A stretch of 63,935 nt of DNA, the filler included, from Hausera hauseri (lineage: Eukaryota), in the NCBI GenBank assembly GCA_046269625.1. It is 12 parts of 12 records of this genome, joined end to end, with 100 filler letters (N's around TTAATTAATTAA, not from the genome) between each part and the next. Parts side by side here need not be neighbours in the genome. Positions count along the whole stretch, not along the records: positions 17,672 to 22,814 come from JBJURY010323050.1; 11 more parts are not named here. The stretch is one strand, 5' to 3'. Position 1 is the stretch's first letter. Each line of letters opens with the position of its first letter. The notes under the pieces were generated by a model that had not been told where the DNA came from, searched no databases, and saw nothing but the letters and a program-made list of their open reading frames with translations. The position numbers and the translations under genes are program-made. Of the stretch, positions 3,701-44,488 are shown one piece after another.

Positions 3701-5067
3701 TTTTGATTTGAGTGTTTCTGTTCACCAATTATAAACAAACAAATAAAAAATAACAGCATTACGGTAGTTTTATGCGGAAATTTTATTAAAATCGATGAAA
3801 TGTTTACACGACAAATAAAATGCATCTTTATGCAAGATTGTAAAACATTAAAACGTAATAATACGACATGGGCTCAACACATTTCTATGTAATACGGTTC
3901 GTGCCGTTTATTGGCTGAATTGCAATGTTCAAGTTTTCTCGAATCAACAGAAATCTATTTTGAGTAGGTGACGTCATTATTGACATCATTTTTGATTAAA
4001 CTCATTTCCTAAAATTAAATACGAAATCTTGATGATATCATCTGCATGCAAAAATATTTTCATTTCTGGAAATTAGTGAATACAATAATAGTTCCTTTGT
4101 AAGGTTATCCAGAATGTACTTTTATCCAGTCTACTGACTCTTTACAATTTTGTCAGTAATATGTATTATTAATACGTATTAGACAAGACGTATTAGTCAT
4201 ATGACATACATCGGAACACATTGCAACTTGAACACTTTCATTTATCTAATTTTACAATTACATTAAACTTGCGTGTACACGTACATATGCTTCTGATTAT
4301 TCGATTTTGCTGAAAGTAACGTGCAAAAAACAACTCATACAATAAAGACACGGGCATTTATTCATGACATTAGTCAATTCATACTTGTTAATTAAGGTTG
4401 TGTTGTGTCTGACTGTGTCTGACATTAACTGCACTCTTGAAATCTAAATTTGGATCACCGGGTTTCATGTAGATATTTTCTCTGCCCTGTTTTGATACCA
4501 AATTTAGGTTCTCGCTTGATATAAATTCCGATGCTGATTTTGGTAAGAACACAATATTTTAACAACAATATTTTGACAACATTTTAACAACATTTTGAAG
4601 TTGATTTCATTTCAGTTTGAATTGAATTGAATATTTGAATTAATGCAATTGATATTTTGAGTAGTGAGTTTATATTTATTATTATTGAACCCAAATATAT
4701 TTTACTTATTTTCTGTTCGTTATTTGTTTATAATTAAAGTTTTGATCCTAGACTAACAGATAGTCTAAGGAAATTAATCATTTTCCGATTATTCTGCAAT
4801 CACTACTAATATTATAACATACAATTAAATTGATAAAGTTAATATCACAAATCTTATTCAAGTATTTTCCTTCTATAAACCTTAAGAAATACGCTGAATA
4901 CATTGCAATTACTTTTTCATATATTAAATTTTGTATTGAAGAAAGATTAGACTTCTATTTCTCCAGAGAAGCAATAAGACGTGAACAAATTAATCATTTA
5001 AACAAAAAGTGTAACCCTCACAAAGTTTTGTGAAAGCTATTAAGATAGCAAAACACAAAACAAGATT

Positions 5068-5832: not shown

Positions 5833-8096
5833 ATTCATCAGATTTATAATTTTTGTTCTGCTGATGGTAAGGTTGCTCTTGAGAGATTAGTTAAGAATAT
5901 TATTATTTCAGATCTGGAGGAGAATTTCAGAGTTGAGAACGTAGAAGTAGGAGAGTTATAGTTCAGGAGAAATTTGCGTAGAAAATTTAAAGCACTGTTT
6001 GTCAGTTTGGTGTTATCGAAGTTGACGTTATAGTTGACTCGTGCGCTATGACCTTTGTAAAAGAAGTGTCTTAAGCCTCGGGCGGTGGGACCATATTGTT
6101 CGAATCGAGTGTCACGAGTTGAAAGGGCATTTTGAGGGGTCGGGTGAAAGGAAGACTATTCATAGGTTTTATTTTGTTCTGGTCCAGTGTAACGATCATG
6201 GTTGCAATGATGGCATGTGGGGTTGGTTGGTTAGATTCTTCATGTATTCGGTATGTTGATATACTTTTAGTGGGAATTGTTGTGGGTTTAGGTTGTAGTT
6301 ATGTAGTAGAAAATCCATATGGGGAGTGGGAGAGGGGAGGGAAGTACAAGACAGTTTTTCTAGGAATATTAATATTTTAGCTCTAGTGGTGAAGTGGATC
6401 GGTGTATAAGATGAAGTTGATTTGTATCTTCGTAGGAAATCGTCGAGGAAGGAAGTAGCTTGTGTTTTAAGCTTGTTACCTTTGAAGGTTACTGAGTGAC
6501 TGATATTGGGGTTCCGATTTTTGGCGAAAAAGATTTTCAGAGATCTTACAATAAGTATGAACTGTTCAAGGACTGGATTGTGGGTAGTAAGAGCATTTGG
6601 TAGAGGCCAAGTAAAATATGCAAGCTGAGTTTCTTCAATGTTAAGTTCCATTGCTTTGTTGTTGAGTTTAGAGGTGTGACGTTTTGTTGTGCTGTCGGAG
6701 ATATTTGGAATTGTAGGGTTTTCAGATAAAATTTCATAGACATTCATCCAGTTGTATAAATGGGTGAAGTTGGTAGGGTTCCGTTGAACAATGTATTCTT
6801 GAGTGGCTTTAAGGAAGTTAAATATAGTGTGTTGAGTGTCGAAGCGGAAGTTGAGGTTAGGTGCATCATTACTAAAGGAAGAAAGTTTCGCTTGAATTGT
6901 GAAGATAGGGGATGTAAATTTTTTCCAGAAGGTTGGTGGGAGTTGATTAGTGGAAAATGCTATGTAGTAGGTAGGTTTTTGAAGAGCAGTCTTTGGAGGT
7001 CGGCAAGGAGGATAGAAGCATAATGAGGTAATTTATGTGTTAAGTCGTAGAAGTATTCATTAATATAATCATCCATTATATAATTTGTTAGTTGTTTCTG
7101 TGCTGGGAGGTTTGAATCTTGGATAAGGGCATATGATTTCGGGAACGGCAATTGTTGTGCAGAAATTCCAGAGTCGATTGGATAAAGATGAGACTGCTTA
7201 GGATTTTAGAAGGCAGAAATCTTTGGTTGTAGAAATCATGAAGAGTTTGTATACATGGTTTGTGGCAGAATGTAGATACAAATCGTGCAACCTTATGTGT
7301 TGGAGTAATTGGCAGAGGGTCACACGCGAGTATAAAGAAGGCTTTTAGGATATGTATGTTGTCAATTGGGGCAGATTTGGTTGTTGAGTAAGTGGTAAGG
7401 GATGTTAGATGGCTAAGGATTTGGTTGTCATAGTGTGACAGTGTGGTCCCTTCGTCTTTGTTAAGGCTATCTAAGGGAAAGAGAATCCAATTGCAGTAGT
7501 TGTTTTTAAAGAAAAGAAGAAGGTCTGTTTCCATGCTTATAAGAATAGCGAGGTATTTTGGGGTTTTCAGACATCGGAAACGCAGAAGTGCTACTTTTAT
7601 GTAGTTTGCTGTTGTTGTTTGAAGTAGTAAGGTTAGAGGCAGGAGTGAATTTTATAAATTTTACTTTAGGAGTAGAGGCAAGAAGCACCTTATCTGCCCG
7701 GGTGTTAGCAGCCATGTCTGACCCATTATGAGCCACGGCGAGTGTTGCAGGATCAGTCTGAGCCGCCTTATCAGAAAGTTTAATTTGGGATGTTTGGGTT
7801 TGTTGGTGTCTCTTTTTGGGAGAAGTGGATGATGAAGTCGGTTTATAAGGTCTTCGGAGACTTTCCTTTGGTGGGATAGGAGGTGATTGTTGCAAAGTCT
7901 GTAGTCTATTGTTGTGGGGTGGTAGAGGGAGTAGGAGAGGTGGAGCAAAGTTTTGACATTGTGGGGGGAGTGGCCAGAAATAAGGAGGAGAAAGGAGACG
8001 CGCATCATACAGAGTGTAGCCAGGACTAGAGGGTACTAGAAGACATCCTCCGCCATAGAGTGGTCTATTCCCCACTTTCGGATTCGCATTTCCCAA
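5833..8096 (-). pseudogene. Decayed long ORF of unknown family, probably mobile-element derived
   Basis: Chain of same-strand ORF fragments (7506-8096, 7088-7534, 6960-7151, 6196-6747) with C/A strand bias; no motif recognised. Confidence 0.4.
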
Positions 8097-8117
8097 GCCT
8101 ATATTCCTAGCTACGGA

Positions 8118-8279
8118 TTTTATAAGAGCCAGCTCGGTCTCAAGACTGCCAGGAAAACAAAAATATTAAAATTGATCCAGCTCGAGCCGTTTACCCGGGC
8201 CACAGGAGAGAACTACTGTGGACCCCGAATCGCCAGGAAAATTAGGAACCAGCTCGAATTCATCGAATTCGCCAGGAAA
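8118..8279 (-). promoter_or_regulatory. Repeated-motif cluster with TATA-like box upstream of the decayed ORF
   Basis: CCAGCTCG at 8129, 8177, 8249; GCCAGGAAA at 8148, 8232, 8271; TATAAAA on minus at 8124-8118. Confidence 0.35.
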
Positions 8280-13768: not shown

Positions 13769-13960
13769 AGGAATCAAATGACGCGCGGTTTTAAACCTCG
13801 TTATTTAGGGCCCTACAGACATGTTCACTTGCATTCTCACAATGCCATTACCCTCAAACACGGTAAGGAACTAGCGGCGCATATCAACCACGTCAAGCTC
13901 GCTTTCTTCGTAGATGATACACCCCAAACCGAATGTCCTACTTATTTTCTTTCTTCTTCA
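13769..13960 (+). mobile_element. Gypsy integrase C-terminal (GPY) fragment
   Basis: NQMTRGFKPRYLGPYRHVHLHSHNAITLKHGKELAAHINHVK; homologous to 44850-45000 and 48005-48150. Confidence 0.8.
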
Positions 13961-15221
13961 TCTATTCCTGGAAAATCCTCACTTATTTTATATAATAAAT
14001 TTATTACGGTATTAAGTCTATGTCTTAGAGTTTTACTTTTATACAGTCGCTCCTTTCTATTCACCAATGGAACTTTCATTATAGCGTGAATTATAATTGT
14101 TCTCTTACTTCGAATTCCTCCCTCTACTATTTCCTTTTCCAACCTGAATCCCATAAGATTTGATCCACAAATTCCCTTAAATCCCTCAAAACCTTTGCTC
14201 CTCCGCGGGGGAATTTTACCAACTTTAATCAATTGCGTTAAATCAGTCACACCGATTTTAGCATACACTCCCAAATAATAACTCCCTCCGACAACCATCG
14301 AAACGAAGAAATAAGAACAATGAACATTAATAGTATTCGTATAACACCTCACTTCTTTCAATCTCGCCATTATTAGGCCGATATACACCTTTGTGTCCTT
14401 CACCACATCATCCGTTTCGTCATTAAGCTGTCCGGATCAGACATTCGTTTGTTAGAATCTCTGGAACAATTAATGATCGCCTATTTATTTTCTGATAACT
14501 CCTTTTCATCTCTTTCTCCATCATACGATCTCTAAACAAATTTATTGGTGAAGACAATGTTAACTCTTTATCAACACAGTGAACAATCTTATTTCCCGTT
14601 CTTATATTCTTAGTTTCTTCAAACTGAAGATAATCAAATATTCCCAATTTAGAATAAGACGTTTGGGACAGTCTATTGGTCCACTTCTTCTTAGTTATCT
14701 TTTTGCTATTCTCTGTCGAACTTTCTGTTGAGGAAATATGAGCACTCCTTCTAAGCTTTTCTGCACCTGTTTTTATACAAGTTTCTTTCCTGTGATTGCT
14801 AGAGGCCATGAATTTCAACCTTTCTGAACTGCTCTGATCCATGAATTTGTAGACAACTATTTTAGCATATTTCATTATAAGTCTTTTTAAATTCTGCTTT
14901 ATTGATCTCATATTGGATCTTAATTAATTTCTCTGACGACATAATATAACCTGTTATCAACGTGTCAGATAAACGTTAACCACCAAAAGACAGGTTTCTA
15001 TGCAATCACAAACGTGTGATCGATAGAATAATAATTAAAATTCTTATTAAAATGTTCATTTTAACAGAGGTGAAAAACCGAAATACTACAAATCACCAAG
15101 AGACGTAAATCCCATCTTAAAAACATCGACAAGACAACATCAAATATGAAAAAAACATATCAGAATGACATAATCTAAAGGTAGGCAAGACACATTGATC
15201 CGTCCGACTATATAATATACG

Positions 15222-16787: not shown

Positions 16788-16846
16788 TCCACCTAGTCAG
16801 TCGGGTTGCAACACCGGTGTTAACTTTACATTTTCAAAGAAAATGA
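16788..16846 (+). pseudogene. Polinton minor capsid (penton) C-terminal remnant
   Basis: IHLVSRVATPVLTLHFQRK* matches the penton ..V.LHFRR end; its stop overlaps the next ATG (ATGA). Confidence 0.55.
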
Positions 16847-17346
16847 CACAGCGTGAAATAATAGATTTGTATAGCCGACCACAGCTTGGTTGCGACTTAC
16901 CATACTTTGTTTGGCGACAGTATAATGGTAATTGGAAACAGAGATTGGGTAGATTCGCATTAAGGTTGGGAAGAAAATTTGGTTTACCAGTAGCTGAAAA
17001 TGTAGGTTCAGCTGCGGTGAAAGCTGCAAACGCCGCATTATTTAACAAGAAACCTATAAAAGAAGCAATAAACGAAAATATGTTAAGTAGAGTACATGAT
17101 ATAAAGAAACATGCAATTGATACGATGAAAGAGATTGTTGATCCAGTTGAAAAACAAGGCGGTGATGGTGGTCGAAAACGAAAAAAACATAATAAGGGAC
17201 AATTTCCTTGTGCAGGATCTCAATTTCGTGCTGTAAACAGTCCTAGTTTAAGCAATAGTAATACTATTTCTATGCATGGCGATCGTAAGCGTAGGAAGCA
17301 AACAACTGTAAGCAAATGTCATAAAGTAACTATTTTTGATAAATAA
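16843..17346 (+). CDS. Polinton/adintovirus basic amphipathic virion protein (cupiennin-like / protein VI-like)
   Basis: PQLGCDLPYFVWRQYNGNWKQRLGRFALRLGRKFGLPVAENVGSAAVKAA, QGGDGGRKRKK; lies between penton and MCP remnants. Confidence 0.7.
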   Translation: MTQREIIDLYSRPQLGCDLPYFVWRQYNGNWKQRLGRFALRLGRKFGLPVAENVGSAAVKAANAALFNKKPIKEAINENMLSRVHDIKKHAIDTMKEIVDPVEKQGGDGGRKRKKHNKGQFPCAGSQFRAVNSPSLSNSNTISMHGDRKRRKQTTVSKCHKVTIFDK

Positions 17347-17571
17347 TGGCATATATTGCAAAATCGGAATTGTGCACTTTTGATCATGCGGTACCACAAG
17401 TTGTTATAAATGCTTCTACATTTCAAACATATTATCCGAAAGATTCAATTTTCAATACCAATACAATAGAATTTAACATAAATTGATGAGAAACTGACTA
17501 TTTAGACTTAAATAGTACATTGCTATGTGTAAAAATCAAGGTGAGGAAATCTGATGGAACATATGTAGCAG
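17346..17571 (+). pseudogene. Polinton major capsid protein (double jelly-roll) N-terminus
   Basis: MAYIAKSELCTFDHAVPQVVI..YYPK..TIEFNIN**ETDYLDLNSTLLCVKIKVRKSDG; TAATG stop-start overlap; two in-frame TGA. Confidence 0.8.
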
Positions 17572-17671: not shown

Positions 17672-17681
17672 TCCTCTCTCT
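17672..17681 (-). promoter_or_regulatory. Candidate polypurine tract
   Basis: AGAGAGAGGA on the element strand, where the contig breaks (expected if a repeated LTR follows). Confidence 0.45.
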
Positions 17682-18605
17682 GTAATAACTGACATACAAA
17701 GTGGGTTTTCCCACTACCACTAGGTCCAACTATCTGGAATACTGCATTGTTATTAATCTCCATTATTAATTACATGTGTGTATATCAATTTTGTTTATAA
17801 CAAGTAAGCATGTTAAAAACATTTATTAACGCACAACACGTGATAAAAATATAACAAGTACCCCTGTAAGAATACTACATATTAGTGTTATATATTGGGG
17901 TGGTCCTTATGCAACGCCCACTATATAACAATGATTACACTTGAAATTTTAAGTATTCTACTACAGGTATGGTCTATCGTTATCGTATAGACAGAATGTG
18001 TCTTACAACTATATTTAATTTGAAATGCTGGTACTCGCTTGCAGTCCTGTGCAAAAAATGGTTTTCAAAATTCTCTCTCCTTATCTAGATTTTAAGTATC
18101 AATTTCAATATCCTAGGGAAGTCCAATTACCCTTATGGGGCAATGAAAAACTATATAGAAGAATTTACAACAATGATACAACAAATTTAATAAATAACAA
18201 TTACCAACATTATTAATCACGTAACCAATTATCGTCTATAGAATTGAAGGTAATTTTTTTGGTCAATCTCGATAGCAACTTTCAGTCGAATTTTCGTTTC
18301 GGTCTTTTACCCTTCAGTCTTTCTCAGTCTCCTTCGTCTATTTTGCTTTCCTATTTATATCGAACATTCTCTGATTATATCTTTTTTTGTCAATTTGACT
18401 TGGGTTTTATTTCAATATTTACACATTTAATCTAATTGCTATCCATTCTCTTCAATTTCAAAAGTAAATAAATCATTTCTGGTGTTCATTGACTTCAAAA
18501 AAAATAAATATTTACAAATTTCCTAATGCTTCAATATATATCAACTAGATTTATCGACATGTTCCTATTGACAGTTTAGTGATAGCGATCATCTCCTACA
18601 TAGCA

Positions 18606-19260
18606 TTACGACATTTCTCCTCCCTGAACGGCATCCTCGGAGGTGCCTATTGCGTCAGAAGAGGTGCCGTCTCTTGGTGGTCTTAACAGATTTAATCGTC
18701 TTCGTAGACTAGTATCTGGGGCTGTAGGTCTCTGGTCAGGTCGAACTTCTAAATCGTAACTATATTGAGGTTTTATGCAAACCACTCCTGTATATTCTCC
18801 ATTCGAGAAATACTTCAAATTGGCTGTCTTAGCCCGACACACCGGACAAGTAGTCTTACCATTTTCTAGAGTCCACTCTTCTATACATTCCCGACAATAT
18901 TTATGTCTGCAATCCTTATTGTTCAGGCTTACAAACCCTTGTTGAAGGTTAGCTTCGCAGACTGGACACTCGTTTTCTTCTTTTTCCCATTTCTCATCGT
19001 CCAGATTCAGTCGAATCGTAAGTTCGATTTGCTCGGAAACTAGCCCTTCTTTTCTTTGATATAAATATCCATGAATTCGTTTCTGTTTGAGGTCCACAGA
19101 ACTCTTTCTGGGGTCACAACTTATAGTGACTAAGGTCCAATCGGCTATCATTTCTTGGTCTAAGTCAGGAATTTTATTAGCTGCCTGGTATTTCTGATAT
19201 TTCTTCTTTAGTAAGACCTTTAGTTGTTTGTCCACTGGTACAGTTAATTTTCCGTTTCAT
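18606..19260 (-). CDS. Element-borne C3HC4 RING finger protein
   Basis: CPVC-x15-CRHKYCREC-x12-CPVC. ORF track starts at GTG 19235; a more likely ATG at 19260 (MKRKINC..GLTKEEISEIP) needs one frameshift near 19185. Confidence 0.8.
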
Positions 19261-19262
19261 TT

Positions 19263-19964
19263 TTATTGGAAAATCGGAGCGACATATTTTCCTAAATTGT
19301 GATTTTCCCATATATAAGCATTTTCATACACCTCTCTTTTTGGGGTAACTGCTATGTAAAATGCTGTCCTTTTTATTTTTCCGTGACTATAGTGTTCAGT
19401 CATTATGAGCATTTTTGGTAGATCTTCTGTAGTGGCAAAATGTTGGTTCCCAGGAAATTTTCTGTTCCTAAGAACATTCACTTCTATATATGATTTTGCT
19501 TCCTCCATTTTTTGCCTTTGTTCTGAATTTGAGGCTCCTTCTGGGTCTTGTTCGGTTCTAGACCGTTGTAAGAATTTCTCACTTCTTTGTATTATTCTGT
19601 TCTTTGTTTCAGCGTTACGTGTCCTTTTAAATATTTTATTGTATAATGAGGTTCTACTTTTGTTATCTTCTATCTTCAGTTTCTTCTTTGGAACTTGAGG
19701 AATTTTGAATATTGAATCTTCGTTCTTGTGTCTATCCATCGGTGGTATGAGGGTCCCTTGACTTGTATTAGGTAGTTGAGCATCATTAAATTCTAAAAAT
19801 TCTCTAATTTTAGATGGTTGATACAGTTTCCGGTATTTGTCATTTAATTCATTTGGATTCGCACAACTGATTAAATTATATTCAGGTTTCGGAGGAACCC
19901 ATTCGTGTTCCCATGTTAGCGCAGTATAAGTACGTATTGGGTACGTTGGCTCGCCGTTAACAAT
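19263..19964 (-). CDS. Accessory ORF, basic, with NLS-like PKKKLKI
   Basis: 158-aa ORF from ATG 19739; frame stays open upstream to 19964 (IVNGEPTYPIRTYTALTWEHEW...). Confidence 0.6.
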   Translation of the reverse strand: MVNGEPTYPIRTYTALTWEHEWVPPKPEYNLISCANPNELNDKYRKLYQPSKIREFLEFNDAQLPNTSQGTLIPPMDRHKNEDSIFKIPQVPKKKLKIEDNKSRTSLYNKIFKRTRNAETKNRIIQRSEKFLQRSRTEQDPEGASNSEQRQKMEEAKSYIEVNVLRNRKFPGNQHFATTEDLPKMLIMTEHYSHGKIKRTAFYIAVTPKREVYENAYIWENHNLGKYVAPIFQ

Positions 19965-20071
19965 TTACTGATTTTAACGCGGCTATTAGTGGCGGCTTTA
20001 ACCATTATTTTAAAATAGGCGTTTATAATTTTTGGCATTGGGTAGTTTCTTGCTCTTAATAAATTTTTTGT

Positions 20072-20647
20072 TCATTCTATAATAAGACAGTGAGTGTTCA
20101 GTTGACTTATTCCTGCTACTCCTGAGTAGGGAATGTCTAATAATGATATAATTTCTTCTACTCGGTATCCAACGAGGATACATCCATACAAACAGTAAGT
20201 TAATTCATTTTGCACAACTTTGACATTTTTTTCTTTTAGATTTTCTTTGCGAATTCCGGTCTGATCGTAGAAGGTTTCTCTAATTTGTTTTCTTGGGCTA
20301 ATAATCGCATGGCAAGACTCTATTCCATTTGTTTCTCTTATGGAAACTTCCATTGGGATCTTATCTACTTTATTTCCTTCGCCGAAGTTTATGGCAATCA
20401 TTTTCGTATTGTTAGCATTGGACACTACTCGATAGGAATATGAGAATTTCTCCATTTCTGATTCCAGAGGTCTGCATCGAAATTTCATAGGTGGTAATGG
20501 AATATTACTTTGTTCATCTTTGGTTACCTCAATCATTATTTTGACGGGAAGGGCGGTCACCCAAAATTCCAAGTATTGATCTTGTAAGTTTTTGCTTTGC
20601 AATTTTAACGTACTAAATCTGTATTGTTTCCACTTCCCGTGTTCCAT
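20072..20647 (-). CDS. Accessory ORF of unknown function (191 aa)
   Basis: ATG ORF overlapping the upstream ORF by 43 nt; may be its frameshifted continuation. Confidence 0.6.
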   Translation of the reverse strand: MEHGKWKQYRFSTLKLQSKNLQDQYLEFWVTALPVKIMIEVTKDEQSNIPLPPMKFRCRPLESEMEKFSYSYRVVSNANNTKMIAINFGEGNKVDKIPMEVSIRETNGIESCHAIISPRKQIRETFYDQTGIRKENLKEKNVKVVQNELTYCLYGCILVGYRVEEIISLLDIPYSGVAGISQLNTHCLIIE

Positions 20648-21009
20648 TCTTGCACATGTAATCGGTGATAAATTTCGCCATCAGCTAGATGTATGTACAA
20701 GTCCTGGCCTAATTCGTTTTCCATTAACTTCCGAAGTGAATATGTTTTAACGTTTTTATCTTCTCTCATCGCATACAAATATACAACTCTAACTTCCTCG
20801 GTAGTTTCTTTTAAGTTGTTTGGTATAGTGTGGACTCGATCGGATTTTATAGCCGCCTTCCCATGTAATTCGTTGTGTATCTCCCGGTAAATGGAATTGG
20901 ATCTTATGATAAGCATAGTAGCATATCTCTGTAAGAATTCGTCGATGCTACGTCGGCAGGCTTGAGGTTTTTCTTTTTCTTGTTCGTCGATCCTACGTCG
21001 TCCGGACAT
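20605..21009 (-). CDS. Accessory ORF of unknown function (134 aa)
   Basis: ATG 16 nt downstream of a splice-acceptor-like site. Confidence 0.6.
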   Translation of the reverse strand: MSGRRRIDEQEKEKPQACRRSIDEFLQRYATMLIIRSNSIYREIHNELHGKAAIKSDRVHTIPNNLKETTEEVRVVYLYAMREDKNVKTYSLRKLMENELGQDLYIHLADGEIYHRLHVQEWNTGSGNNTDLVR

Positions 21010-21025
21010 CTTCTGAGTATTAACT

Positions 21026-21052
21026 CTGAAATATAAACAATAGGGGTTATTC
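21026..21052 (-). promoter_or_regulatory. Candidate 3' splice site for a subgenomic accessory mRNA
   Basis: GAATAACCCCTATTGTTTATATTTCAG|AG: branch-like TAAC, pyrimidine tract, TTTCAG. Confidence 0.55.
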
Positions 21053-21164
21053 TTAAAATGTAGAATTGTTTTAGAACAAAACCAATTCTTCGCCCAATGA
21101 CAGAATAACCCGTTCTGTAATTGTCAGGTTATTTTATCATATACATCGCTTTGGTATCCCACCC

Positions 21165-22500
21165 TTAATTCTCAATCTTTATTTTTGCGCTGTTTTTTAC
21201 AGTTTTGGTAATTATATAAAATAACGCTATTAATATTACTAAGACGAACGCTGACACTCCAATAATTGAATAAATAGGTAGCGTTGTTAGTTCAATTGGT
21301 TTCTGTGTCGTTATATATGCGGTACTTGTATTTTCTACGTCTCGATTTTTCTGTGAATTTGGGTAAATATTTTCTATTAAGGTGCGTAAGGTAATTGTTA
21401 GATTCTGTTTTTCTGCTGCATTAATTTGTACTATGTGTTCTGTCTGAGAATTTAGTGAATTACATTCTGTCTGTCGTGTATTCCTTATAAGTATTACTTT
21501 TTGTCTATCATATAAGGTTCGACAATTTATTTCTATGTCGTAGTTTAATCTTTCCTCGACAAAGAAAATTATCTTATTTTGCTGCAGTAAATATTTGATA
21601 GGAATACCTTCCGGTTGCCTTCCGGATCTTGTACTCGTCATGACGATCTTAGTAGCGGTACTAGTCGTTGTCGTCGTTCTGGTTTGAGTCTTCCAATTTT
21701 GACCCTTTAAACAATACCTTCTTAGCTATATGCTTGGCTGGTTCTGCTTAACATTATATAGGTTGAACTGTATCTCGCAACTGTACCTTTGGGGTATTTT
21801 ACAACACGGTTTTGGGTTCCATCGGCTAATAGCGCAATATCTTGCTGGCGAACTTGTTTTAAATGGTATAAATCGAACCGAGTTCTGATAGAATTCCGTT
21901 AAACTTGTTCTAGTTCTAATTTGAATACATGCATTTTCCCGATCTTTAGAGACTTCAACTCTATTTTCATCTAACAGCTTAATTTGAGGGTCGGTACTTT
22001 GGACTACATCAGAAAATTTTATGCTACCAGCTAAGGCTTGTTTTGGCATAGTTATTTCCACCAATGGTCGTATATCTGCTCGAATGATCTCATAGGGGTA
22101 ATAATACATGCGTATTACATATCCACATATTCGTTCGAAGTCCAGTTCGCAGCATTTCCTGTAGATTTCATATCCAAACTCGCAATCCTTAATCTTTTCA
22201 CTATTTTGATTAGTGAACTTTTTACGAATTTTCATATATTCTGTGGTAGTCTTCTCGGTTTGGAACCAAATACAGGGTTTCTTCCAATCTACGTCATACG
22301 CTTTCATTGTTTTTAGATTTCCCACATTCTTTTGTCCTTCCAGGTGTTTCTGTTCCTCTCTGATTTTAGCTTCCTTTCCACTTTTGCTAATTCCATATAT
22401 ATCTGTTAAACTAGATACACTATCATTCCACCATTGCGCTTTAGTTTTGGGAATATAAGAGGCGATTAGTGATAATGCTAAGATTATCTGTACGTAAGAT
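21165..22500 (-). CDS. Env-position type I membrane glycoprotein with one internal TAG
   Basis: Signal-like YVQIILALSLIASYIPKTKA/QWW, two Cys modules, TAG at 21726-21728, then in-frame Thr-rich linker, NLT/NTS sequons, TM helix IYSIIGVSAFVLVILIALFYII and short basic tail. ORFs 21726-22565 and 21165-21641 share a frame. Confidence 0.8.
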
Positions 22501-22814
22501 ATTGGTCTACTAATTATAGAAGATGTCTTGGTTTTCTTTTTGTCTTGGTTTTGGTTGGATCGCAAATTGTAAAGTTTTTCTGGTCTTATTTCTGTCTTAA
22601 AAACTCTCTGTATGGATACTACCTCTTCCTTGCCATTTTTATTTATGTAAACAGTGGTCGGTGTGGTTCGAATAATTTCGTAAGGCCCTCGTCCGGTACG
22701 AGTAAGTTTTAATGACGCACCCTTTTTTGCGACTGGGTAATATACATAGACCCAGTTCCATTTCTATAAATCGTGTGACTTGGCCTTGTCATATTGTTTT
22801 TTAAACTGTTCTTG
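22501..22814 (-). pseudogene. Gypsy integrase C-terminal GPY module
   Basis: QEQFKKQYDKAKSHDL*KWNWVYVYYPVAKKGASLKLTRTGRGPYEIIRTTPTTVYINKNGKEEVVSIQRVFK..LYNLRS, in frame with the glycoprotein. Confidence 0.85.
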
Positions 22815-33093: not shown

Positions 33094-36000
33094 TTACCTA
33101 CATTTAATGGAGATTTGAGAAATTGGATTAGATTTTGGGGTCAGTTTGAGAAAGTTGATAAAGACCATAATTTAGATCTACATGATAAGTTTGCATATCT
33201 ATCTCAATGTATGGAAAAGGGAAGTGTTGCCGAAGAATTAATTAGAAGTTTTCCACCGGGGGGAAACAGTTATGATAAAGCTATAGAACAACTGAAATCA
33301 CGTTTTGGTAGAGAAGAGTTACTTATACAAGTGTATGTCAGGGATCTTTTAACATTAGTTCTACAAAGGCAGAGTATGCCGAGAAAATCTTTGAGGAATC
33401 TTTATGATTCATTAGAAACGAAACTCCGTGCACTTGAGATATTGGGAGTAACTAGGGATAAGTATGCATCGATGCTTTTCCCGCTTGTTGAGTCTGCTTT
33501 ACCTGAGGAAACACTTATAGCTTGGGAACGACATAGATCTGCAGGTCGTAGATCCCAAGATGAAGTAGATCAAATTGTAAATAAAACTACTACAAAAAAT
33601 GATCTCGATTTAATTCTTGATTTTCTTCAAGATGAAGTACAGGCAGAGGAACGTATAAATTTAGCGTCACAGAACTTTAGAGTTGAAACCAAACCCAATT
33701 TTAAGTTGTTCAAAGAAAAAAAGGCTGAAAATAATAAAAACAAATATGGAGCCACTCGTCAAATAGCTAGTGCAGCTGATCTTTTAACCTCTTCGAAAGA
33801 GCAGAGAAAGTGTATATTTTGCCATAATTCGCATAGTTCTACTGACTGTTTGAAGGTGCGGAAAATGGCAATGAAAGAGAGAGAAAACCTAGTAGAGAAA
33901 TCAGGATGCTGTTTTTTGTGTTTAAAACCAGGCCATCAAGTACGCAAATGTTATTCAAAGGTAACTTGTTTGAGTTGTGGAAAGAGACATCATATTTTAC
34001 TCTGTCATAACATAAAGCAGCTAACATTTATCCCTACCGAAAAAGGAACTACAGAATTAGATAATGTTCCAAAGGAGGATCAGACACTTGCGAATATATC
34101 AAAAAGCCCTAGTGTTATGTTACTAACATTAACAGTTTTGATAAGAGGCGATGGAAGAAAACGAAAAGCACGAGCCATAATAGACACTGCTTCACAGCGC
34201 TCTTACATTTTAAAAAATACAGCCAAAGAGATGAAATATAAAAGTGAAAGCTGTGAATATCTTCAACATTCTCTGTTCGGTGGAGAGAAAACACGAGTGT
34301 GTAAACATGACGTGTTCACTTTATATTTGACGAGTTGTGATGGATCTTATAACTGTAATTTCAAAGTACTGAGCCAACCTGTTATCTGTGAAAGCATTCC
34401 ATCAACAACACCTACAGTTTATTTAAAAGAGCTTACTGACTGTGGTATACGTGTGAGCGATGATTATAAAGGTCCTATTGAAATTTTAATAGGAGCCGAC
34501 GTAGCAGGAAAAATCATCACAGGTGGTTACAAGTCCTTACCGTCTGGTTTAACAGCAATGGAAACGCGTTTAGGGTGGACCGTGATGGGTCGTACACAAC
34601 AAATTTCTTCAGAGGAAAATGAAATATCAGTAGCTAATTCTATGCTTTCTACTGCTAGGACAATAACAGAATTGTGGACTCTTGACTCGCTTGGCATTAC
34701 TGATCCATCTGAGAAGAAATCTAAAGAAGAACTTCATGAATCCGCCAGAGAGCATTTTGTTAACACAGTTCAAGTAGACAATGACAATCGTTTTGTGGTG
34801 CATTTACCTTGGCTTGAAGATCACCCCCCACTGCCTGATAATTTTAATTTGGCTATGAAGAGGCTGGACAGTACTGTACTAAAGTTGAAAAAGGAAAATT
34901 TGTATGCCGATTATAATCAAGTATTTAACGAATGGGAAAAGGAAGGGATAATTGAAGAAGTTCCTCAACATGAGATTCAATTACCGTCCCATTATTTACC
35001 ACATAGACATGTTGTGAAAGAAAATAGCACGACGAGAATCAGACCTGTCTTTGATGCCTCCGCAAAGCAGAGAGCTTTTCCAAGTTTGAACGACTGCCTG
35101 GAAAAAGGGGTTAATCTTGTTGAGTTAATTCCTACTATATTAGTTCGATTTCGGTTGAACAAATTTGGAGTTACGGCGGATATCCGTCAGGCATTTTTAC
35201 AAATTCGCCTACACGAAAGGCATAAAGACTATTTGAGATTCCTTTGGTATAAAGAGAACAATGAGCTGAAATATTTTAGACACTGTCGTGTCGTGTTTGG
35301 GATTTGTAGTAGTCCTTTCTTACTTAACTCTGCGATCCAGTACCATTTAGAAGCGATTTTGGCGGAAGCACAAGGTGGGAGCTCAAAATATCCGGTGGAT
35401 ATAGTTCAGAATCTTAAGAACAGTTTTTATGTTGATAATTGCTTAACTAGTGTAAAAACTGAAACCGAATTGCATGATTTCATTCGAGCAGCCACAGATA
35501 TTATGTTAGAAAGGAAGTTTGACCTTAGAGGGTGGGAGCACAATTATTCATCAAGAGAAGAGCCTTCGTCTGTAGAAAATAAAATTGTTCCAGTATTAGG
35601 TCTACAATGGGTTTTAAATTCAGATACTCTTTCTGTAAACTTAAAAGAAATTTGCAAAGATGATGGACCTATTACTAAAAGAAAAATACTTTCAGAAGTC
35701 CACAAAATTTTTGATCCCATTGGATATACTTGCCCAGTTACTTTAGGCCCTAAACTAATGCTACAAGAATTATGGAAAATGAAGACAACATGGGACTCTG
35801 AGTTACCACCAGCAATTTCTAAAAAATTTGAAAATTGGAGAAAACAGATTAATCTACTTAAGGAAATTGCAATCCCTAGATGTTTATTAGGAGACCCTGA
35901 CAATGCCTACAATTTAAGTCTACATGTTTTTTGCGACGCGAGTAAACTAGCTTATGCTACCTGCATATATTTAAGAAATGAAAGCAAAAACATAACTTCA

Positions 36001-38037
36001 TGTCAATTAGTTCAAGCACGAAGCCGGATAGCTCCGATGAAGCCTACTACAATACCTCGGTTAGAGTTATTAGCGTGCACTATTGGTGCACGTCTGTGTC
36101 GAAGAGTTATATCGGATTTAAAATTAGGAGATATTCAAACATTCTTTTGGACTGACTCAAGCAACGCTTTGTATTGGATAAAAGGTAGCGAAAACTGGGC
36201 ACCATTTGTATATAATAGAGTGCAAGAAATTAGATCAGTGAGTAAACCAGAAAATTGGCATTATGTACCTGGATCTATTAATCCTGCAGATTTACCTTCC
36301 AGAGGTTGTTCTGCTCGACAGTTGTTAGAGACAAAATGGTGGCAAGGTCCCAGTTGGCTGTATTACCCATTTGGTAAATGGCCTAAAGCTGAATTTTATG
36401 TAGATAAAGAAGAAGTGATGAAGGAGAGGAAGAAAGAAATAGTATCATCTATGGTAAACCTCAAAGATATGGACAATTCCTTCCTTTATAAGTTTTCGAA
36501 CTATAGAAAGACTATAAGAGTTGTTGCCTGGATGCTTCGATTCCTTTCTAATAGTCGTCTTCCGAGAAATACTAGAAAATATGGTACCCTGGATTACGAA
36601 GAAATTTTGGCAGCTGAATATGGAGTTATCAGAGCGATACAGAAAGAGAGTTTCGTTGGTGTGCAAGATGAAAAGCTAAAAGCTCTGGGAGCCTTTAAAG
36701 ATAAAAATGATATCTTTCGATTGAAAACAAAACTTGTATATCGATCCGATAATGAAGATTTTAAAATGCCAGCAATCTTACCCTCTCGACATGAAGCTGT
36801 AAAATGTATAGTAATGCATTATCACGTAATAAATGCTCATGCAGGGACTCAAATGTTGCTAAACATACTAAGAGAGAGATTTTGGATTCTACATGGTAGA
36901 AGGACAGTGAGATCTATTTTGTCTAAATGTATTATCTGCAAGAGACATTCTGCAAAGAAGCTTGATACTTTCACTGCATCTCTTCCAGAAGACCGTATAC
37001 GAGAGGCAGCTGTATTTGAGATCTGTGGTGTTGACTTAGCGGGACCACTGTTTCTCAGAGATAACAATAAATCTTGGATCTGTCTATTTACATGCGCTGT
37101 ATATAGGGCAGTGCACATTGAACTAGTGACTACTTTATCTACAGAATCTTTTTTACTAGCTTTGCGCAGATTCATAGCCCGTAGAGGACGATGCAGCATT
37201 GTCTATTGTGACAATGGCTCCAATTTTGTAGGTGCTTCAAATTTGCTGAAGAAGTTGAATTGGGACCTAATTGTAAGTGACACTGCTCTTCATCCTATTA
37301 AATGGAAGTTCAATCCACCGACTGCTTCATGGTGGGGTGGTTGGTTTGAGAGACTGATCGGTATTCTTAAAAATTTGTTGAAAAGAATATTAGGCCGATC
37401 TTCTTTAACTTATGAGCAGATGACAACTGTGTTATGTGATTGCGAAGCCGTTATTAATTCACGACCGATGACGTATGTCGCAGATAACGACGCAGAGCTG
37501 ATCCCATTAACTCCTTCTATGTTTCTACAAGATATAAAAGTGAGCGGTGTTCCTGACTGTGATAGAGTTGATCACCAAAGTCTTAACCAACGTGTTAAGT
37601 ATCGGCAAAGTTTACAAAAAGCCTTAAGAAGTAGATTTCGATCGGAATACTTGGGCGCTCTACTTCAGAGACCAGAACGCAAAAGAGCAGCCAAAGTAGT
37701 AGTCGGTGACGTTGTCTTGATTGGAAGCGACAACACAAAACGCATCGATTGGCCACTGGGGAAAATAATCGAGATAATCCCGGGCAAAGATGGAGTTACA
37801 AGACTTGTGAGATTAAAAACTGCGAACGGTGAACTACTTCGGCCGATACAACGACTCTATCCGCTGGAAGTGTCAGCGGCTGAGTCAATTCTAATTAGGA
37901 AAAGTTTACCAGATACCGATGTGAGTGAACAGTCAACAGTCAGTCAATCTGTTGACAGTAATATTGAATCTACTGTGGAGGCAAGGAAAACTAAAAGTGG
38001 CCGTGTCGTCAAGGTGCCTCATAGACTGAATTTGTGA
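33094..38037 (+). CDS. BEL/Pao LTR retrotransposon gag-pol polyprotein, uninterrupted, 5' truncated by contig start
   Basis: LPTFNGDLRNW gag, three CCHC knuckles, protease IIDTASQRSYI, RT RPVFDAS/YVDN, RNase H LHVFCDAS/PADLPSRG, integrase DLAGP/DNGSNF/WWGGWFERL, WPLGKI C-terminal domain. Confidence 0.97.
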   Translation, partial: LPTFNGDLRNWIRFWGQFEKVDKDHNLDLHDKFAYLSQCMEKGSVAEELIRSFPPGGNSYDKAIEQLKSRFGREELLIQVYVRDLLTLVLQRQSMPRKSLRNLYDSLETKLRALEILGVTRDKYASMLFPLVESALPEETLIAWERHRSAGRRSQDEVDQIVNKTTTKNDLDLILDFLQDEVQAEERINLASQNFRVETKPNFKLFKEKKAENNKNKYGATRQIASAADLLTSSKEQRKCIFCHNSHSSTDCLKVRKMAMKERENLVEKSGCCFLCLKPGHQVRKCYSKVTCLSCGKRHHILLCHNIKQLTFIPTEKGTTELDNVPKEDQTLANISKSPSVMLLTLTVLIRGDGRKRKARAIIDTASQRSYILKNTAKEMKYKSESCEYLQHSLFGGEKTRVCKHDVFTLYLTSCDGSYNCNFKVLSQPVICESIPSTTPTVYLKELTDCGIRVSDDYKGPIEILIGADVAGKIITGGYKSLPSGLTAMETRLGWTVMGRTQQISSEENEISVANSMLSTARTITELWTLDSLGITDPSEKKSKEELHESAREHFVNTVQVDNDNRFVVHLPWLEDHPPLPDNFNLAMKRLDSTVLKLKKENLYADYNQVFNEWEKEGIIEEVPQHEIQLPSHYLPHRHVVKENSTTRIRPVFDASAKQRAFPSLNDCLEKGVNLVELIPTILVRFRLNKFGVTADIRQAFLQIRLHERHKDYLRFLWYKENNELKYFRHCRVVFGICSSPFLLNSAIQYHLEAILAEAQGGSSKYPVDIVQNLKNSFYVDNCLTSVKTETELHDFIRAATDIMLERKFDLRGWEHNYSSREEPSSVENKIVPVLGLQWVLNSDTLSVNLKEICKDDGPITKRKILSEVHKIFDPIGYTCPVTLGPKLMLQELWKMKTTWDSELPPAISKKFENWRKQINLLKEIAIPRCLLGDPDNAYNLSLHVFCDASKLAYATCIYLRNESKNITSCQLVQARSRIAPMKPTTIPRLELLACTIGARLCRRVISDLKLGDIQTFFWTDSSNALYWIKGSENWAPFVYNRVQEIRSVSKPENWHYVPGSINPADLPSRGCSARQLLETKWWQGPSWLYYPFGKWPKAEFYVDKEEVMKERKKEIVSSMVNLKDMDNSFLYKFSNYRKTIRVVAWMLRFLSNSRLPRNTRKYGTLDYEEILAAEYGVIRAIQKESFVGVQDEKLKALGAFKDKNDIFRLKTKLVYRSDNEDFKMPAILPSRHEAVKCIVMHYHVINAHAGTQMLLNILRERFWILHGRRTVRSILSKCIICKRHSAKKLDTFTASLPEDRIREAAVFEICGVDLAGPLFLRDNNKSWICLFTCAVYRAVHIELVTTLSTESFLLALRRFIARRGRCSIVYCDNGSNFVGASNLLKKLNWDLIVSDTALHPIKWKFNPPTASWWGGWFERLIGILKNLLKRILGRSSLTYEQMTTVLCDCEAVINSRPMTYVADNDAELIPLTPSMFLQDIKVSGVPDCDRVDHQSLNQRVKYRQSLQKALRSRFRSEYLGALLQRPERKRAAKVVVGDVVLIGSDNTKRIDWPLGKIIEIIPGKDGVTRLVRLKTANGELLRPIQRLYPLEVSAAESILIRKSLPDTDVSEQSTVSQSVDSNIESTVEARKTKSGRVVKVPHRLNL

Positions 38038-38826: not shown

Positions 38827-38882
38827 TTTCTCCCAGTAATAGTAATATATCACTAATTAATGATCGTTGGTGCTGGGATAAC

Positions 38883-39328
38883 ATGCACATTACCCCGACA
38901 ATAATTAATACGGATGATCGAAAATTTTGTGAAGTTCGATCCCATGTTTCCAGGGACACCAATCGTGATGACCGAAGACGTAAAGTTGTTGCTGATAGAA
39001 CCGTAAAGCAAATGGTTGCTAAAACTGGTTATGATCCATGGGGAATTTATTCAAAACTTAGTCCGACTATGGTTGTCGGTTTGGATACATTCCACAGTAA
39101 GACTGGTAAGAGATCGGTTCACACTGTAGTTTTTTCTATTAGTACATAGTTCACTCAGTATATTAGGCTCGTTAATTCGACTAAGGGCAAAAGTGAATAC
39201 CACGATTTGTCTAACAGAAACATCGCTGCACCAATCAAGTGCTTCAAAGATAAGTTTAATATTCTGCTTCAGAAGCACATTATCTACCGTTATGGTGTTT
39301 GTGATTCTCGAGCATATTTCACCAAACT
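38883..39328 (+). pseudogene. piwi: PIWI-domain fragment (piwi pseudogene)
   Basis: QMVAKTGYDPWGI..TMVVGLDTFHSKTGKRSV..VFSIST*FTQY..IIYRYGVCDS; TAG at 39147-39149 and catalytic YRDG changed to YRYG. Confidence 0.88.
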
Positions 39329-42300: not shown

Positions 42301-44388
42301 TGCATCATTAAGCTCTAGCAAGATAAAACAAACTATTCTATGGACCGCCAAGCTAGTGAACGCTTTCGATCACCTTAAAAACAATCTAAAAACCGTGAAA
42401 ATCCTGGCCTATCCCGACTCCCATGTAGAACTCTTCTTAATCACGGATGTATCCACAAAAGCTGCATGTGCTGTCATCCATCAACTTAAAAATGGATCCC
42501 ATGAGCCATTAGAATTCTTTTCTCGCAAATTCACGGCACAAGAGCAAAGATATTCCACCTTTGACCGAGAGTTGCTTGCAATGGTCCTTGCAGTAAAACA
42601 CTTTTAAACATCTATAAACTGCACGAACTTTTACCATACAAACGGACCAAAAGCCCTTGCTTCAAATTCTCACCATGAAATCGCCTTCTCCGCATCAGGA
42701 GAGGCAAATATCGTATTTGTCTACATTTAATTTTAAAATTAAGCATCTAAACGGAGTCGACAATTTAGTAGCTGACTTTTTGTCCCAATTGGTCAGCTCG
42801 ATTGATTTTACACAAATTTTTTCTCAATCCAAACTTCAACAAAACTATCTTCCTTCTGACATTTTTAAATCTTTCAAATCGTGCAAAACCATCGACGATG
42901 TGGTCTTTGACACTTCCAAACCTAATAATCCTAAGGTCATCCTTACTAAATCGCTTCAAAAAAAAGCATTTAGCAACTTTCATTCGTTGCATTATCCCGC
43001 TACCAAGGCCATCTTTCGACTTTTACAACGCCACATAGTATGGCCGTCGATGCGCTCTGACGTACAGACATGGGTTAGGCAGTGTGTGGCATGCCAAAAA
43101 TACAAAGTTACTAAGCACTTAAAGCCATCACTATATCATTTTCCCTGCACGCGTCATTTTGAATCAGTTTACATTGAACTTGTAGGACCAATACCCTTAG
43201 ATAACGGTCATCAGTTCATCCTCACAATGATGGACCGTTCCTCGCGATGGCTAAAGGCCGTCCCGCAATGTAGCACCAACACAGAAACGATCGCAGACGT
43301 TTTCATCCGCACTTGGACCAGCAGGCCTGAATCACCTCGCCACATCATTTCGGACCAAGGTACACAATTCAAATCCAACCTGTTTAAAGCTCTTCTTAAT
43401 CGATTTGGAATTAACCACATTCACACATCACCATATCATCCCTAATCGAATGGCCTTCTCAAACGCTTTTACCGAACAATGAAAACGTCTCTCAAAATCC
43501 TCGCCGAGTCCAATGGCAGTAGGACTACCCTCCTTCCGTACGTTCTGCTTGGCTGGCGGAACACACCATCTACTTCTACAGGCTGCTTACCTGCAGAAGC
43601 ATTATTTGGCACTTCCATCAGATCATTATTCAAGTTGACTGAGTTGGACAATACTCCCATAAACGAAACCATACATGCGTCCAGAGACACTTCATTGAGA
43701 TCAGCAAAGACTCATTTTTTAGGATTGTTACACGCAAATAAACCCTGCATACCAGACGATTTACATACCACCAAGTTCGTTTGGTTAAAGAATCAGACGC
43801 CGTGTGGCTTTCAACCCCAGTATGTCGGCCCTTACAAAGTAATTCGCTTACACCCCCATAATATCATCATTCTCAAAGACGACAAAGAAGAAACCGTTCA
43901 CATCAATAATGCTAAATCAGCTTTCTTCATTGACGACACGTAGCCCATCGAAGCCACTTCTCCACCAACATCTTTACACGATGCGCAGCAATCCAACAAT
44001 TCACCTTCCATCTCTGCTCAATTTCTTAATCTACTTTTGCCTACGTTTTCTCTCAAAACTTCCACTTCAATTTCTTCTCACAATTCAGCCTCTTTCTTCC
44101 CATCCGATTTTGCACCTTCAAGCCTATCACCACCTCCTTCATCCCCTCACAACAACCTGCTTTCTCCTTTTACAGCACTCTCTCCATCAAACACCATTTC
44201 GACTTCACTAATCTCTCCATCCACAACTTTCATCATTCCAACCTCTTGCACACCACTCTCCAACTACTTTCTTTGCCTTCTCCATCTTCTTGCTCTCTTT
44301 CGCCTTGTACCTCTTCGCCGTCTTTTCTTTTTCGCTCTCCTTCTTCTTTCACACCTTCCCCAACTTTAACGCTTTCTTCCTCCATTTC
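39328..44388 (+). mobile_element. CsRn1-like Gypsy element, decayed (gag-PR-RT-RH-IN)
   Basis: tRNA-Trp-like PBS TTGTGACCCG at 39358, CHCC gag boxes, RT TPFGLFEYLFMPF/HIDD, RH YSTFDRELLA, IN SDQG/GPY, Ser/Pro-rich tail. Confidence 0.93.
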
Positions 44389-44488
44389 NNNNNNNNNNNN
44401 NNNNNNNNNNNNNNNNNNNNNNNNNNNNNNNNTTAATTAATTAANNNNNNNNNNNNNNNNNNNNNNNNNNNNNNNNNNNNNNNNNNNN
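44389..44488. other. Artificial contig spacer
   Basis: 44 N + TTAATTAATTAA + 44 N. Confidence 0.98.

What the first reader, a model, noticed from the sequence alone, without database searches (positions are those of the whole stretch)
21165..22814. Pol runs in frame into a signal peptide and a ~420-aa type I membrane protein
Seen: no stop between integrase YNLRS and the hydrophobic signal. Two predicted ORFs are one frame split by a single TAG (21726-21728) just before the Thr-rich stalk and TM anchor. The TAG is either damage or a leaky stop giving secreted versus anchored forms. No fusion peptide, heptad repeat or F-protein motif is evident, so it is not a typical errantivirus env and may be an attachment protein or new fusogen.
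Basis: partly seen in the sequence, partly recalled or inferred. Interest (0 to 1): 0.8.

Follow-up and report, generated by a model that had tools for sequence, protein, structure and literature searches.

The report
Retrotransposon carrying fibronectin-like surface protein
A damaged copy of an animal retrovirus-like transposon carries, where a membrane-fusion envelope gene would normally sit, a gene for a receptor-like surface protein built of fibronectin-like domains, followed by two more extra genes, which hints at a gene load not usually seen in these elements.

Summary
The frames are as described, but the reading changes. The 5.1-kb contig (17672-22814, minus strand) looks like the 3' end of a decayed Ty3/gypsy-type element. 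In order: integrase tail, a type I membrane protein, an unknown ORF pair, a RING-finger ORF pair, then a polypurine tract and TG.

The TAG at 21726-21728 is most likely damage:
- a 40%-identical relative (P0002, 479 aa) reads through that position uninterrupted;
- the TAG falls inside a conserved strand;
- the copy has another TAG in the integrase and a frame-broken cytoplasmic tail.

The in-frame Pol junction is real here but not shown to be conserved. P0002 is a free-standing ORF with its own Met, and no fused form was found.

The ectodomain does not look like an F, gB or class II fusogen. It looks like three small beta-sandwich (FN3/Ig-like) domains, the first two an internal repeat. Each fold test is individually weak.

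Best reading: a captured adhesion or receptor-like ORF3 in an accessory-gene-rich element. The relatives' genomic context is unchecked.

The parts
22557..22814 (-). C-terminal (GPY/SH3-like) tail of a gypsy-type integrase, cut by the contig edge; broken by an in-frame TAG at 22764-22766
   Evidence: tblastn to in-window gypsy integrase E 0.006; 14.8 bits; 0 of 2000 shuffles; no Pfam hit
22515..22556 (-). 14-codon A-rich linker, open in the integrase frame; both other frames are also open across it and stop at 22516 and 22512/22509, at the head of the signal
22437..22514 (-). Signal-peptide-like stretch with no in-frame ATG in this copy; the most conserved part of the protein (21 of 27 identical to P0002)
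22305..22436 (-). Charged, probably helical N-terminal segment of the mature protein
   Evidence: low-confidence helices; 16 of 38 identical
22083..22298 (-). Domain 1: four-Cys repeat unit, homologous to domain 2
   Evidence: (hhalign E 8.3e-5; 0 of 60 column shuffles)
21711..21992 (-). Domain 2: four-Cys beta-sandwich, Ig/FN3-like
   Evidence: (block pLDDT 58-72 over model residues 11-80)
21726..21728 (-). In-frame TAG inside the predicted last strand of domain 2; most likely a lesion of this copy
21624..21692 (-). Thr/Ser-rich linker (61% S+T) between domains 2 and 3
21381..21611 (-). Domain 3: FN3-like domain with two conserved Cys; 38-42 of 77 identical among the three proteins
   Evidence: (Pfam fn3 E 0.12 on P0003)
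21210..21380 (-). Juxtamembrane stalk and transmembrane helix (TM about 21275-21210)
21124..21209 (-). Cytoplasmic tail, broken: in-frame TAA at 21165-21167; conserved YxxI-T end in another frame at 21141-21124
20072..21009 (-). ORFs C (21009-20605) and D (20680-20072), overlapping in different frames; possibly one broken gene; no family found
18606..19964 (-). ORFs E (19964-19263) and F (19256-18606), same frame, split by two stops; RING finger at about 18974-18834; F ends 6 nt inside the putative LTR
   Evidence: (zf-RING_2 E 2.7e-8, above cut-off)
18614..18625 (-). Polypurine tract directly followed by TGT
   Evidence: such a motif arose in 2.6% of 500 simulated contigs
17790..18613 (-). 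Putative 3' LTR; starts TG, AATAAA at 17827; its far end is not verified (no second LTR on the contig)

Best explanation
This is the 3' end of a decayed Ty3/gypsy-type LTR retroelement of an animal. It carries three extra genes between integrase and the 3' LTR. The first (ORF3) encodes one continuous type I membrane protein: signal, short helical segment, two repeated disulfide-bonded beta-sandwich domains, a Thr-rich linker, a third FN3-like domain, a stalk, a TM helix and a short tail ending in a YxxI sorting-type motif. Shown: gene order, continuity in a relative, the internal repeat, conserved cysteines, and several lesions in this copy. Inferred: the FN3-like fold (moderate), and translation as its own ORF (own start or a spliced leader) rather than as a Pol tail (about 65%). 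Mechanism I commit to (inferred, about 45% among functions): the protein goes through the secretory pathway to the surface of the producing cell or budding particle and acts as an adhesion/attachment protein that holds it against a target cell, without fusing membranes itself. The next most likely function is a receptor-like immune decoy working alongside the RING E3 (about 30%). The TAG is damage.
For: Relatives: 2 proteins among 1,835,955,588 at E <= 0.001; P0002 (479 aa, E 2e-80) matches query residues 2-446 in one stretch across the TAG (167 of 460 identical). All 10 ectodomain Cys of P0002 align with Cys in the window copy. Independent damage: TAG in the integrase tail and a displaced tail motif. 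Repeat D1-D2: E 8.3e-5, 0 of 60 shuffles. Fold: AlphaFold2 with 3 rows gives two all-beta domains. In the wide structural search 28 of the 50 listed chains are FN3-type by my reading of their titles (fibronectin, cytokine receptors, tissue factor, monobody; Z 4.5-5.7, rmsd 2.6-3.9 over 69-77 residues for most). ESM Atlas on the P0002 ectodomain: 9 of 10 listed clusters carry Pfam fn3, scores 0.82-0.84. Pfam fn3 E 0.12 on P0003. Element context: integrase profile, PPT+TGT exactly at the end of the last ORF, and the same A-rich coding strand (36-43% A) in all seven coding segments measured.
Against: Every fold test is weak on its own. Mean pLDDT was 49 and 32 without alignment. The best Z was 6.3 (rmsd 3.0, 79 aligned) to a non-FN3 sandwich, and none of 48,161 chains reached Z 8. 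Foldseek gave no match at E <= 0.001 in PDB or BFVD. The Atlas scores are under 0.9, and the window's own D1-D2 segment gave no FN3 lead. Domain 3 is not linked to domains 1-2 by sequence (13 and 29 of 60 shuffles reach the score). The integrase call rests on about 30 aligned residues with no Pfam support. The LTR is unpaired. The contigs of P0002 and P0003 could not be read, so linkage of this gene to a retroelement rests on one copy. P0003 begins 19 alignment columns after the TAG column, which a stop near the same place would also produce. Function is untested.
Confidence: 0.6

Rival explanations
1. Programmed read-through: the TAG is a conserved leaky stop giving a secreted D1-D2 form and an anchored full-length form in this sub-lineage.
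For: The stop is followed by C, then TA. P0003 lacks a signal and starts 19 alignment columns after the TAG column, as a gene caller would place it after a stop there.
Against: P0002 is continuous there. The context is UAG-CUAA, not the UGA-CUAG described as leaky (PMC9661723, one passage), and the following codon encodes a residue conserved in P0002. No downstream structure (z +0.64). Stopping there would cut the predicted last strand of domain 2 (inference). No matching N-terminal half-protein appeared among the 2 hits. The copy has other lesions.
Confidence: 0.1
2. A genuine Pol-ORF3 polyprotein with an internal signal cut by signal peptidase, in the manner of the single-ORF Gag-Pol-Env belpaoviruses.
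For: Open frame from integrase to signal and no in-frame ATG before residue 170 in this copy. The signal region is unusually conserved (21 of 27). Precedent: Atlas virus, one 2828-residue Gag-Pol-Env ORF (PMC9094657, passages).
Against: P0002 is a 479-aa stand-alone protein with Met at positions 1, 6 and 10. No fused form among 5924 candidates of 840-2395 aa (the tool calls this weak evidence) nor in the length-independent search. Both other frames stop at the head of the signal, and a chance in-frame open linker has about 13% probability. Errantivirus env is typically spliced (PMC12992720, passages), which also explains a signal without its own ATG.
Confidence: 0.3
3. The gene block is not retroelement cargo: it is an endogenous large-DNA-virus or Polinton segment, or host sequence, lying next to an integrase remnant (possibly of a Ginger-type DNA transposon; that family's GPY integrase is recalled, not tested).
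For: Receptor-like FN3 proteins and RING ligases are typical DNA-virus cargo (recalled). A P-loop ATPase start flanks the contig (17763-17674; Pox_A32 E 0.015). Polinton-type DNA polymerase B occurs on another contig of the window. The LTR is unpaired.
Against: All ORFs are co-oriented with the integrase, share its composition, and end at a PPT+TGT. The gene is intronless and has no host-family match: only 2 unnamed relatives.
Confidence: 0.2
4. The protein is a new kind of fusogen.
For: It sits in the env position, has type I topology, conserved disulfides and a tyrosine-motif tail. Non-canonical retrotransposon fusogens exist (sORF2; PMC11952523, abstract only).
Against: No hydrophobic segment above 0.79 (15-residue window) between signal and TM in either protein. 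The R-x-x-R sites of the window copy are absent from the P0002 ectodomain. A chain of small repeated beta-sandwiches with a flexible Thr-rich hinge is receptor-like.
Confidence: 0.07

Closest known systems
Ty3/gypsy errantiviruses with F-type or HSV gB-type Env (Chary and Hayashi, PMC13524379; abstract, sections 5 and 6 part 1, section 14, supplement search)
   Same: Gypsy-type pol followed by a signal- and TM-bearing ORF before the 3' LTR.
   Different: That survey classifies Env as F or gB only. This protein has no conserved furin site or fusion peptide, is built of small repeated beta-sandwiches, and is followed by two further genes including a RING. Three short motifs of this protein and the word fibronectin were absent from its 7 readable supplementary files (long cells are cut, so sequences may not be held).
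Atlas/Cer belpaoviruses with single-ORF Gag-Pol-Env (PMC9094657, passages)
   Same: Envelope-position protein in frame with Pol, as seen in this copy.
   Different: Bel/Pao rather than gypsy; the Env is a phlebovirus-like Gn/Gc class II fusogen; fusion to Pol is conserved there but not shown here.
Non-Env ORF3s of bdelloid rotifer LTR elements (PMC5408684, abstract, sections 3.2 and 3.3)
   Same: Captured non-fusogen genes in the ORF3 position; the paper warns that TM and cleavage motifs alone do not make an env.
   Different: Those are GDSL esterases, DEDDy exonucleases or 210-230-aa TM proteins; no FN3-like receptor or RING is described in the sections read.
FN3-chain surface proteins: cytokine receptors, tissue factor, and viral decoy receptors (family facts recalled)
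   Same: Signal, tandem Cys-bearing beta-sandwiches, single TM, tyrosine motif in a short tail.
   Different: No sequence-level homology; the fold match is only middling (Z under 6); domains 1-2 carry their own four-Cys pattern.
MDG1-group sORF2 (PMC11952523, abstract only)
   Same: Env-less retrotransposons using an accessory membrane protein for cell-to-cell spread.
   Different: sORF2 is a short FAST-like fusogen; this protein has a ectodomain of about 390 residues.

Membership tests
Ty3/gypsy LTR retroelement (Metaviridae) | Integrase with GPY-type C-terminal module at the end of Pol | tested here: met
   Profile from in-window gypsy integrases 14.8 bits, 0 of 2000 shuffles; weak, no Pfam hit
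Ty3/gypsy LTR retroelement (Metaviridae) | Polypurine tract abutting a 3' LTR that starts TG | tested here: met
   18625-18611; chance 2.6% per contig
Ty3/gypsy LTR retroelement (Metaviridae) | gag, protease, RT-RNase H before integrase; paired LTRs; target-site duplication | not testable with these tools
   Contig starts inside the integrase tail
F-type errantivirus Env (class I) | Conserved furin site | tested here: not met
   R-x-x-R at window residues 396 and 444 is not shared by P0002, which has none in the ectodomain
F-type errantivirus Env (class I) | Hydrophobic fusion peptide after the cleavage site | tested here: not met
   No third hydrophobic peak: 0.79 in the window copy, 0.65 in P0002
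F-type errantivirus Env (class I) | Head-and-stalk fold with long heptad helices | tested here: inconclusive
   Models are mostly beta but low confidence
HSV gB-type Env (class III) | Five-domain hairpin ectodomain with fusion loops | tested here: inconclusive
   The D1-D2 repeat and small sandwich domains do not suggest it; models are too weak to exclude it
Phlebovirus-like Gc Env of belpaoviruses (class II) | Elongated DI-DII-DIII beta fold with fusion loop | tested here: inconclusive
   Only one 80-residue sandwich was modelled with usable confidence
Single-ORF Gag-Pol-Env polyprotein elements | Pol-Env fusion conserved across copies | tested here: inconclusive
   In frame in this copy; the relative is stand-alone; 0 of 5924 long candidates (weak)
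Fibronectin type III domain proteins | Pfam fn3 score above the curated cut-off | tested here: not met
   Best 13 bits against 25 (P0003)
Fibronectin type III domain proteins | Seven-stranded beta-sandwich of FN3 topology | tested here: inconclusive
   Z 5.6, rmsd 2.6, 71 aligned to fibronectin; tied with non-FN3 sandwiches at Z 6.3; Atlas leads 0.82-0.84
Programmed stop-codon read-through | Stop conserved in relatives | tested here: not met
   P0002 has a residue at that column; P0003 does not cover it
Programmed stop-codon read-through | Leaky 3' context or downstream RNA structure | tested here: inconclusive
   C at +4 but not UGA-CUAG; no stable fold, z +0.64; 0 Rfam hits on the contig
RING E3 ligases | C3HC4/RING domain above Pfam cut-off (ORF F) | tested here: met
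   zf-RING_2 34.4 bits against 27.3; ligase activity not tested

The most novel reading that the evidence does not exclude
An undescribed 'complex' gypsy lineage whose post-pol cassette encodes a dedicated FN3-like receptor-binding protein, an unknown protein and a RING E3 ligase. Entry would be split between this attachment protein and a separate fusogen, for example a gB-type env in the unseen 5' half (env-before-pol layouts are reported in PMC13524379), as herpesviruses split gD and gB. It would be a retroelement with two-component entry and its own anti-host ligase.
Probability: 0.2. Interest if true: 0.8.

Novelty: new variant of a known kind. Interest (0 to 1): 0.5.

Why it matters
Invertebrate gypsy elements are thought to spread between cells through F- or gB-type fusogens or small FAST-like proteins. 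A conserved, receptor-like FN3-chain protein in the env slot, with a RING ligase behind it, would add a new class of ORF3. It would suggest attachment or immune-decoy functions so far associated with large DNA viruses and complex retroviruses. The protein has only two detectable relatives, and one is intact and directly assayable. Five literature searches aimed at it, listed no paper whose title or abstract start describes such an element; subscription papers and Repbase were not covered.

Tried and rejected
Homolog searches. Word-index searches found 0 of 3158 candidates, 0 of 5924 longer candidates and 1 of 7999 (P0002 itself). One search missed P0002 and one search missed P0003, so these blanks are insensitive. 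Prokaryote genome scans: 0 of 110 and 0 of 214 pattern matches confirmed.

Family libraries. Pfam, PHROGs, NCBIfam and PDB sequence searches gave nothing significant for the membrane protein or for ORFs C, D, E.

Folds. The single-sequence model was unusable (pLDDT 32; best Z 3.5). No viral fusion protein was among the listed rows, which does not exclude one.

Other ideas dropped. Sequence linkage of domain 3 to domains 1-2 was not significant. An RNA structure behind the TAG was not found. No second copy of the gene exists in the window. A host gene merely adjacent to the integrase was rejected as unlikely: intronless, no host-family hits, same strand composition, bounded by the PPT. No complex prediction was run.

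Left unchecked. Viral and metagenome contig collections, the contigs of P0002 and P0003, and searches with ORFs C and D as one gene.

Full report
Setting. The window is a string of 12 short contigs joined by N-padded spacers. It is rich in Pao and gypsy retrotransposons, Polinton-type polymerase B and an ankyrin-repeat exon, which points to an animal assembly; the host was not identified. The finding lies on contig 17672-22814, minus strand, and its left end is the contig edge.

Observation. One frame runs from 22814 to TAA 21165-21167 with two internal TAGs, at 22764-22766 and 21726-21728. There is no stop between YNLRS and the signal-like stretch (residues 101-126), and a TM helix lies at residues 514-535. 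Six ORFs of 172-345 aa lie on this strand, against a maximum of 185 aa in 300 simulated contigs. No in-frame ATG precedes residue 170.

Element anatomy. The first 86 residues match a profile of gypsy integrase tails from other contigs of the window over the GPY motif (14.8 bits, 0 of 2000 shuffles; best shuffle 13.6). Pfam does not recognise them, so this is moderate evidence. After the membrane protein come ORFs C and D (21009-20072, overlapping in different frames, no family found) and ORFs E and F (19964-18606, one frame split by two stops). F carries a RING finger above the Pfam cut-off (E 2.7e-8; 104 PDB sequences at E <= 1). F ends 6 nt past a 12-nt purine tract followed by TGT. Such a motif arose in 2.6% of 500 simulated contigs, and all seven coding segments measured have 36-43% A on the coding strand. 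I read this as the PPT and start of the 3' LTR; the LTR's far end cannot be verified. Beyond it is the start of a P-loop ATPase ORF.

Relatives. A full HMMER scan of 1,835,955,588 cluster representatives returned 2 proteins at E <= 0.001: P0002 (479 aa, E 2e-80, 40%) and P0003 (189 aa, E 6e-28, 43%). Both are singletons from ENA without names, on contigs of 4,939 and 16,242 nt. P0002 has signal, ectodomain, TM and tail in one ORF and begins with its own Met residues (positions 1, 6, 10). All 10 of its ectodomain Cys align with Cys in the window copy, which has 3 extra. The signal region is the best-conserved part (21 of 27). In domain 3 the three proteins are about equally distant (38, 40 and 42 of 77), so the gene has been kept in at least three lineages. 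Three word-index searches added nothing new and were insensitive. The relatives' surroundings could not be read.

The TAG. P0002 has a residue in the TAG column and 5 of 6 flanking columns are identical. By strand register with domain 3 (alignment not significant by score) and the model, the stop sits inside the last strand of domain 2, a poor place to end a secreted form (inference). The context is UAG-CUAA; the leaky context described in PMC9661723 (one passage) is UGA-CUAG. The next 90 nt fold no better than 200 shuffles (z +0.64). The copy is otherwise damaged: a TAG in the integrase tail, and a cytoplasmic tail whose YxxI-T ending, shared by both relatives, lies in another frame after the TAA, the only such motif in six frames of the window. 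Against this reading: P0003 has no signal and starts 19 columns after the TAG column, which a break near the same place would produce. The Thr-rich linker is also a likely spot for slips and truncations, and no matching N-terminal half was found. I put read-through at 0.1.

The Pol junction. In this copy it is in frame. Both other frames are also open across the 14-codon A-rich linker and stop within a few bases of the head of the signal, and a chance in-frame open linker has about 13% probability. With a stand-alone relative and no fused form found (0 of 5924, weak), a separate ORF is more likely, started from its own ATG or from a spliced leader as for Drosophila errantivirus env (PMC12992720, passages). 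A true polyprotein, as in Atlas virus (PMC9094657, passages), remains possible (0.3); the strong conservation of the signal is unexplained.

The ectodomain. Domains 1 and 2 are a repeat with the same four-Cys pattern (hhalign E 8.3e-5, 0 of 60 shuffles). Domain 3 is not significantly linked to them (13 and 29 of 60). AlphaFold2 on domains 2-3 with 3 rows gave mean pLDDT 49, 58-72 over most of domain 2, and all-beta structure in both. Against 48,161 chains the best Z was 6.3 (fungal SIX8, rmsd 3.0, 79 aligned). 28 of the 50 listed rows are FN3-type by my reading of their titles, for example fibronectin at Z 5.6, rmsd 2.6, 71 aligned (similar). Foldseek found nothing at E <= 0.001. ESM Atlas features for the P0002 ectodomain returned fn3 clusters in 9 of 10 listed rows at 0.82-0.84, a lead only, while the window's D1-D2 piece returned none. 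Pfam fn3 matched P0003 at E 0.12, under the cut-off. Together these point to a chain of three small Ig/FN3-like sandwiches; membership in FN3 is not established. There is no third hydrophobic segment and no conserved furin site, which are features of F-type Env in PMC13524379 (section 6, part 1) and PMC12992720.

How it most likely works. Shown: topology, continuity in a relative, repeat, cysteines, position between integrase and PPT. Inferred: the protein is secreted to the surface, displays disulfide-stabilised sandwiches on a flexible Thr-rich hinge, and is sorted by its tyrosine motif (role of YxxI motifs recalled). It would bind a target-cell ligand so that the producing cell or particle is held against a recipient, with fusion supplied by something else or not needed (about 45%). 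A decoy-receptor role paired with the RING ligase is next (about 30%), and fusogen is unlikely (7%).

Comparison and novelty. It works like an env-position accessory surface protein but fails the F-type tests and gives no support for gB or class II types. Captured non-env ORF3s are known in rotifer elements (PMC5408684, sections 3.2-3.3) and sORF2 in insects (PMC11952523, abstract). Searches for FN3 or RING cargo in gypsy elements (listings only) showed no description, and three motifs were absent from the readable supplements of PMC13524379. The library omits most subscription papers. Verdict: a new variant of a known kind, seen in one broken copy. Interest 0.5.

Noticed in passing
window 1784-3721 (-): Intronless 646-aa ORF with an N-terminal RING finger (Pfam zf-RING_2 E 2.2e-8) on an AT-rich contig; a 117-nt inverted repeat (858-974 / 1604-1720) lies downstream. 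Not similar to the RING ORF of the finding by tblastn at E 0.1.
   Followed up: partly
window 17674-17763 (-): Start of a P-loop ATPase ORF (Walker A; Pox_A32 E 0.015) just beyond the putative LTR; may mean the element sits in a Polinton-like element (packaging ATPase; recalled).
   Followed up: partly
window 16843-17571 (+): A basic 167-aa ORF followed by a broken ORF; the pair resembles Polinton core and capsid genes by recall, with no Pfam support.
   Followed up: partly
window 19916-20071 (-): Short ORF with a Met just upstream of ORF E in another frame; may be the broken start of the E/F gene.
   Followed up: no
window 33094-38037 (+): Uninterrupted Bel/Pao gag-pol ORF of about 1650 aa (Peptidase_A17, RT, integrase zinc finger).
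   Followed up: no
window 38827-55729: Three contigs hold several decayed copies of one gypsy family (70-88% alike); used only as the integrase reference.
   Followed up: partly
window 13945-14923 (-) and 6199-8165 (-): Runs of 160-280-aa ORFs; those scanned (13945-14436, 14426-14923, 6199-7032, 7091-7651) had no significant Pfam family.
   Followed up: no
window 60281-60376: 18-nt tandem repeat inside a 282-aa ORF next to polymerase-B-like sequence.
   Followed up: no
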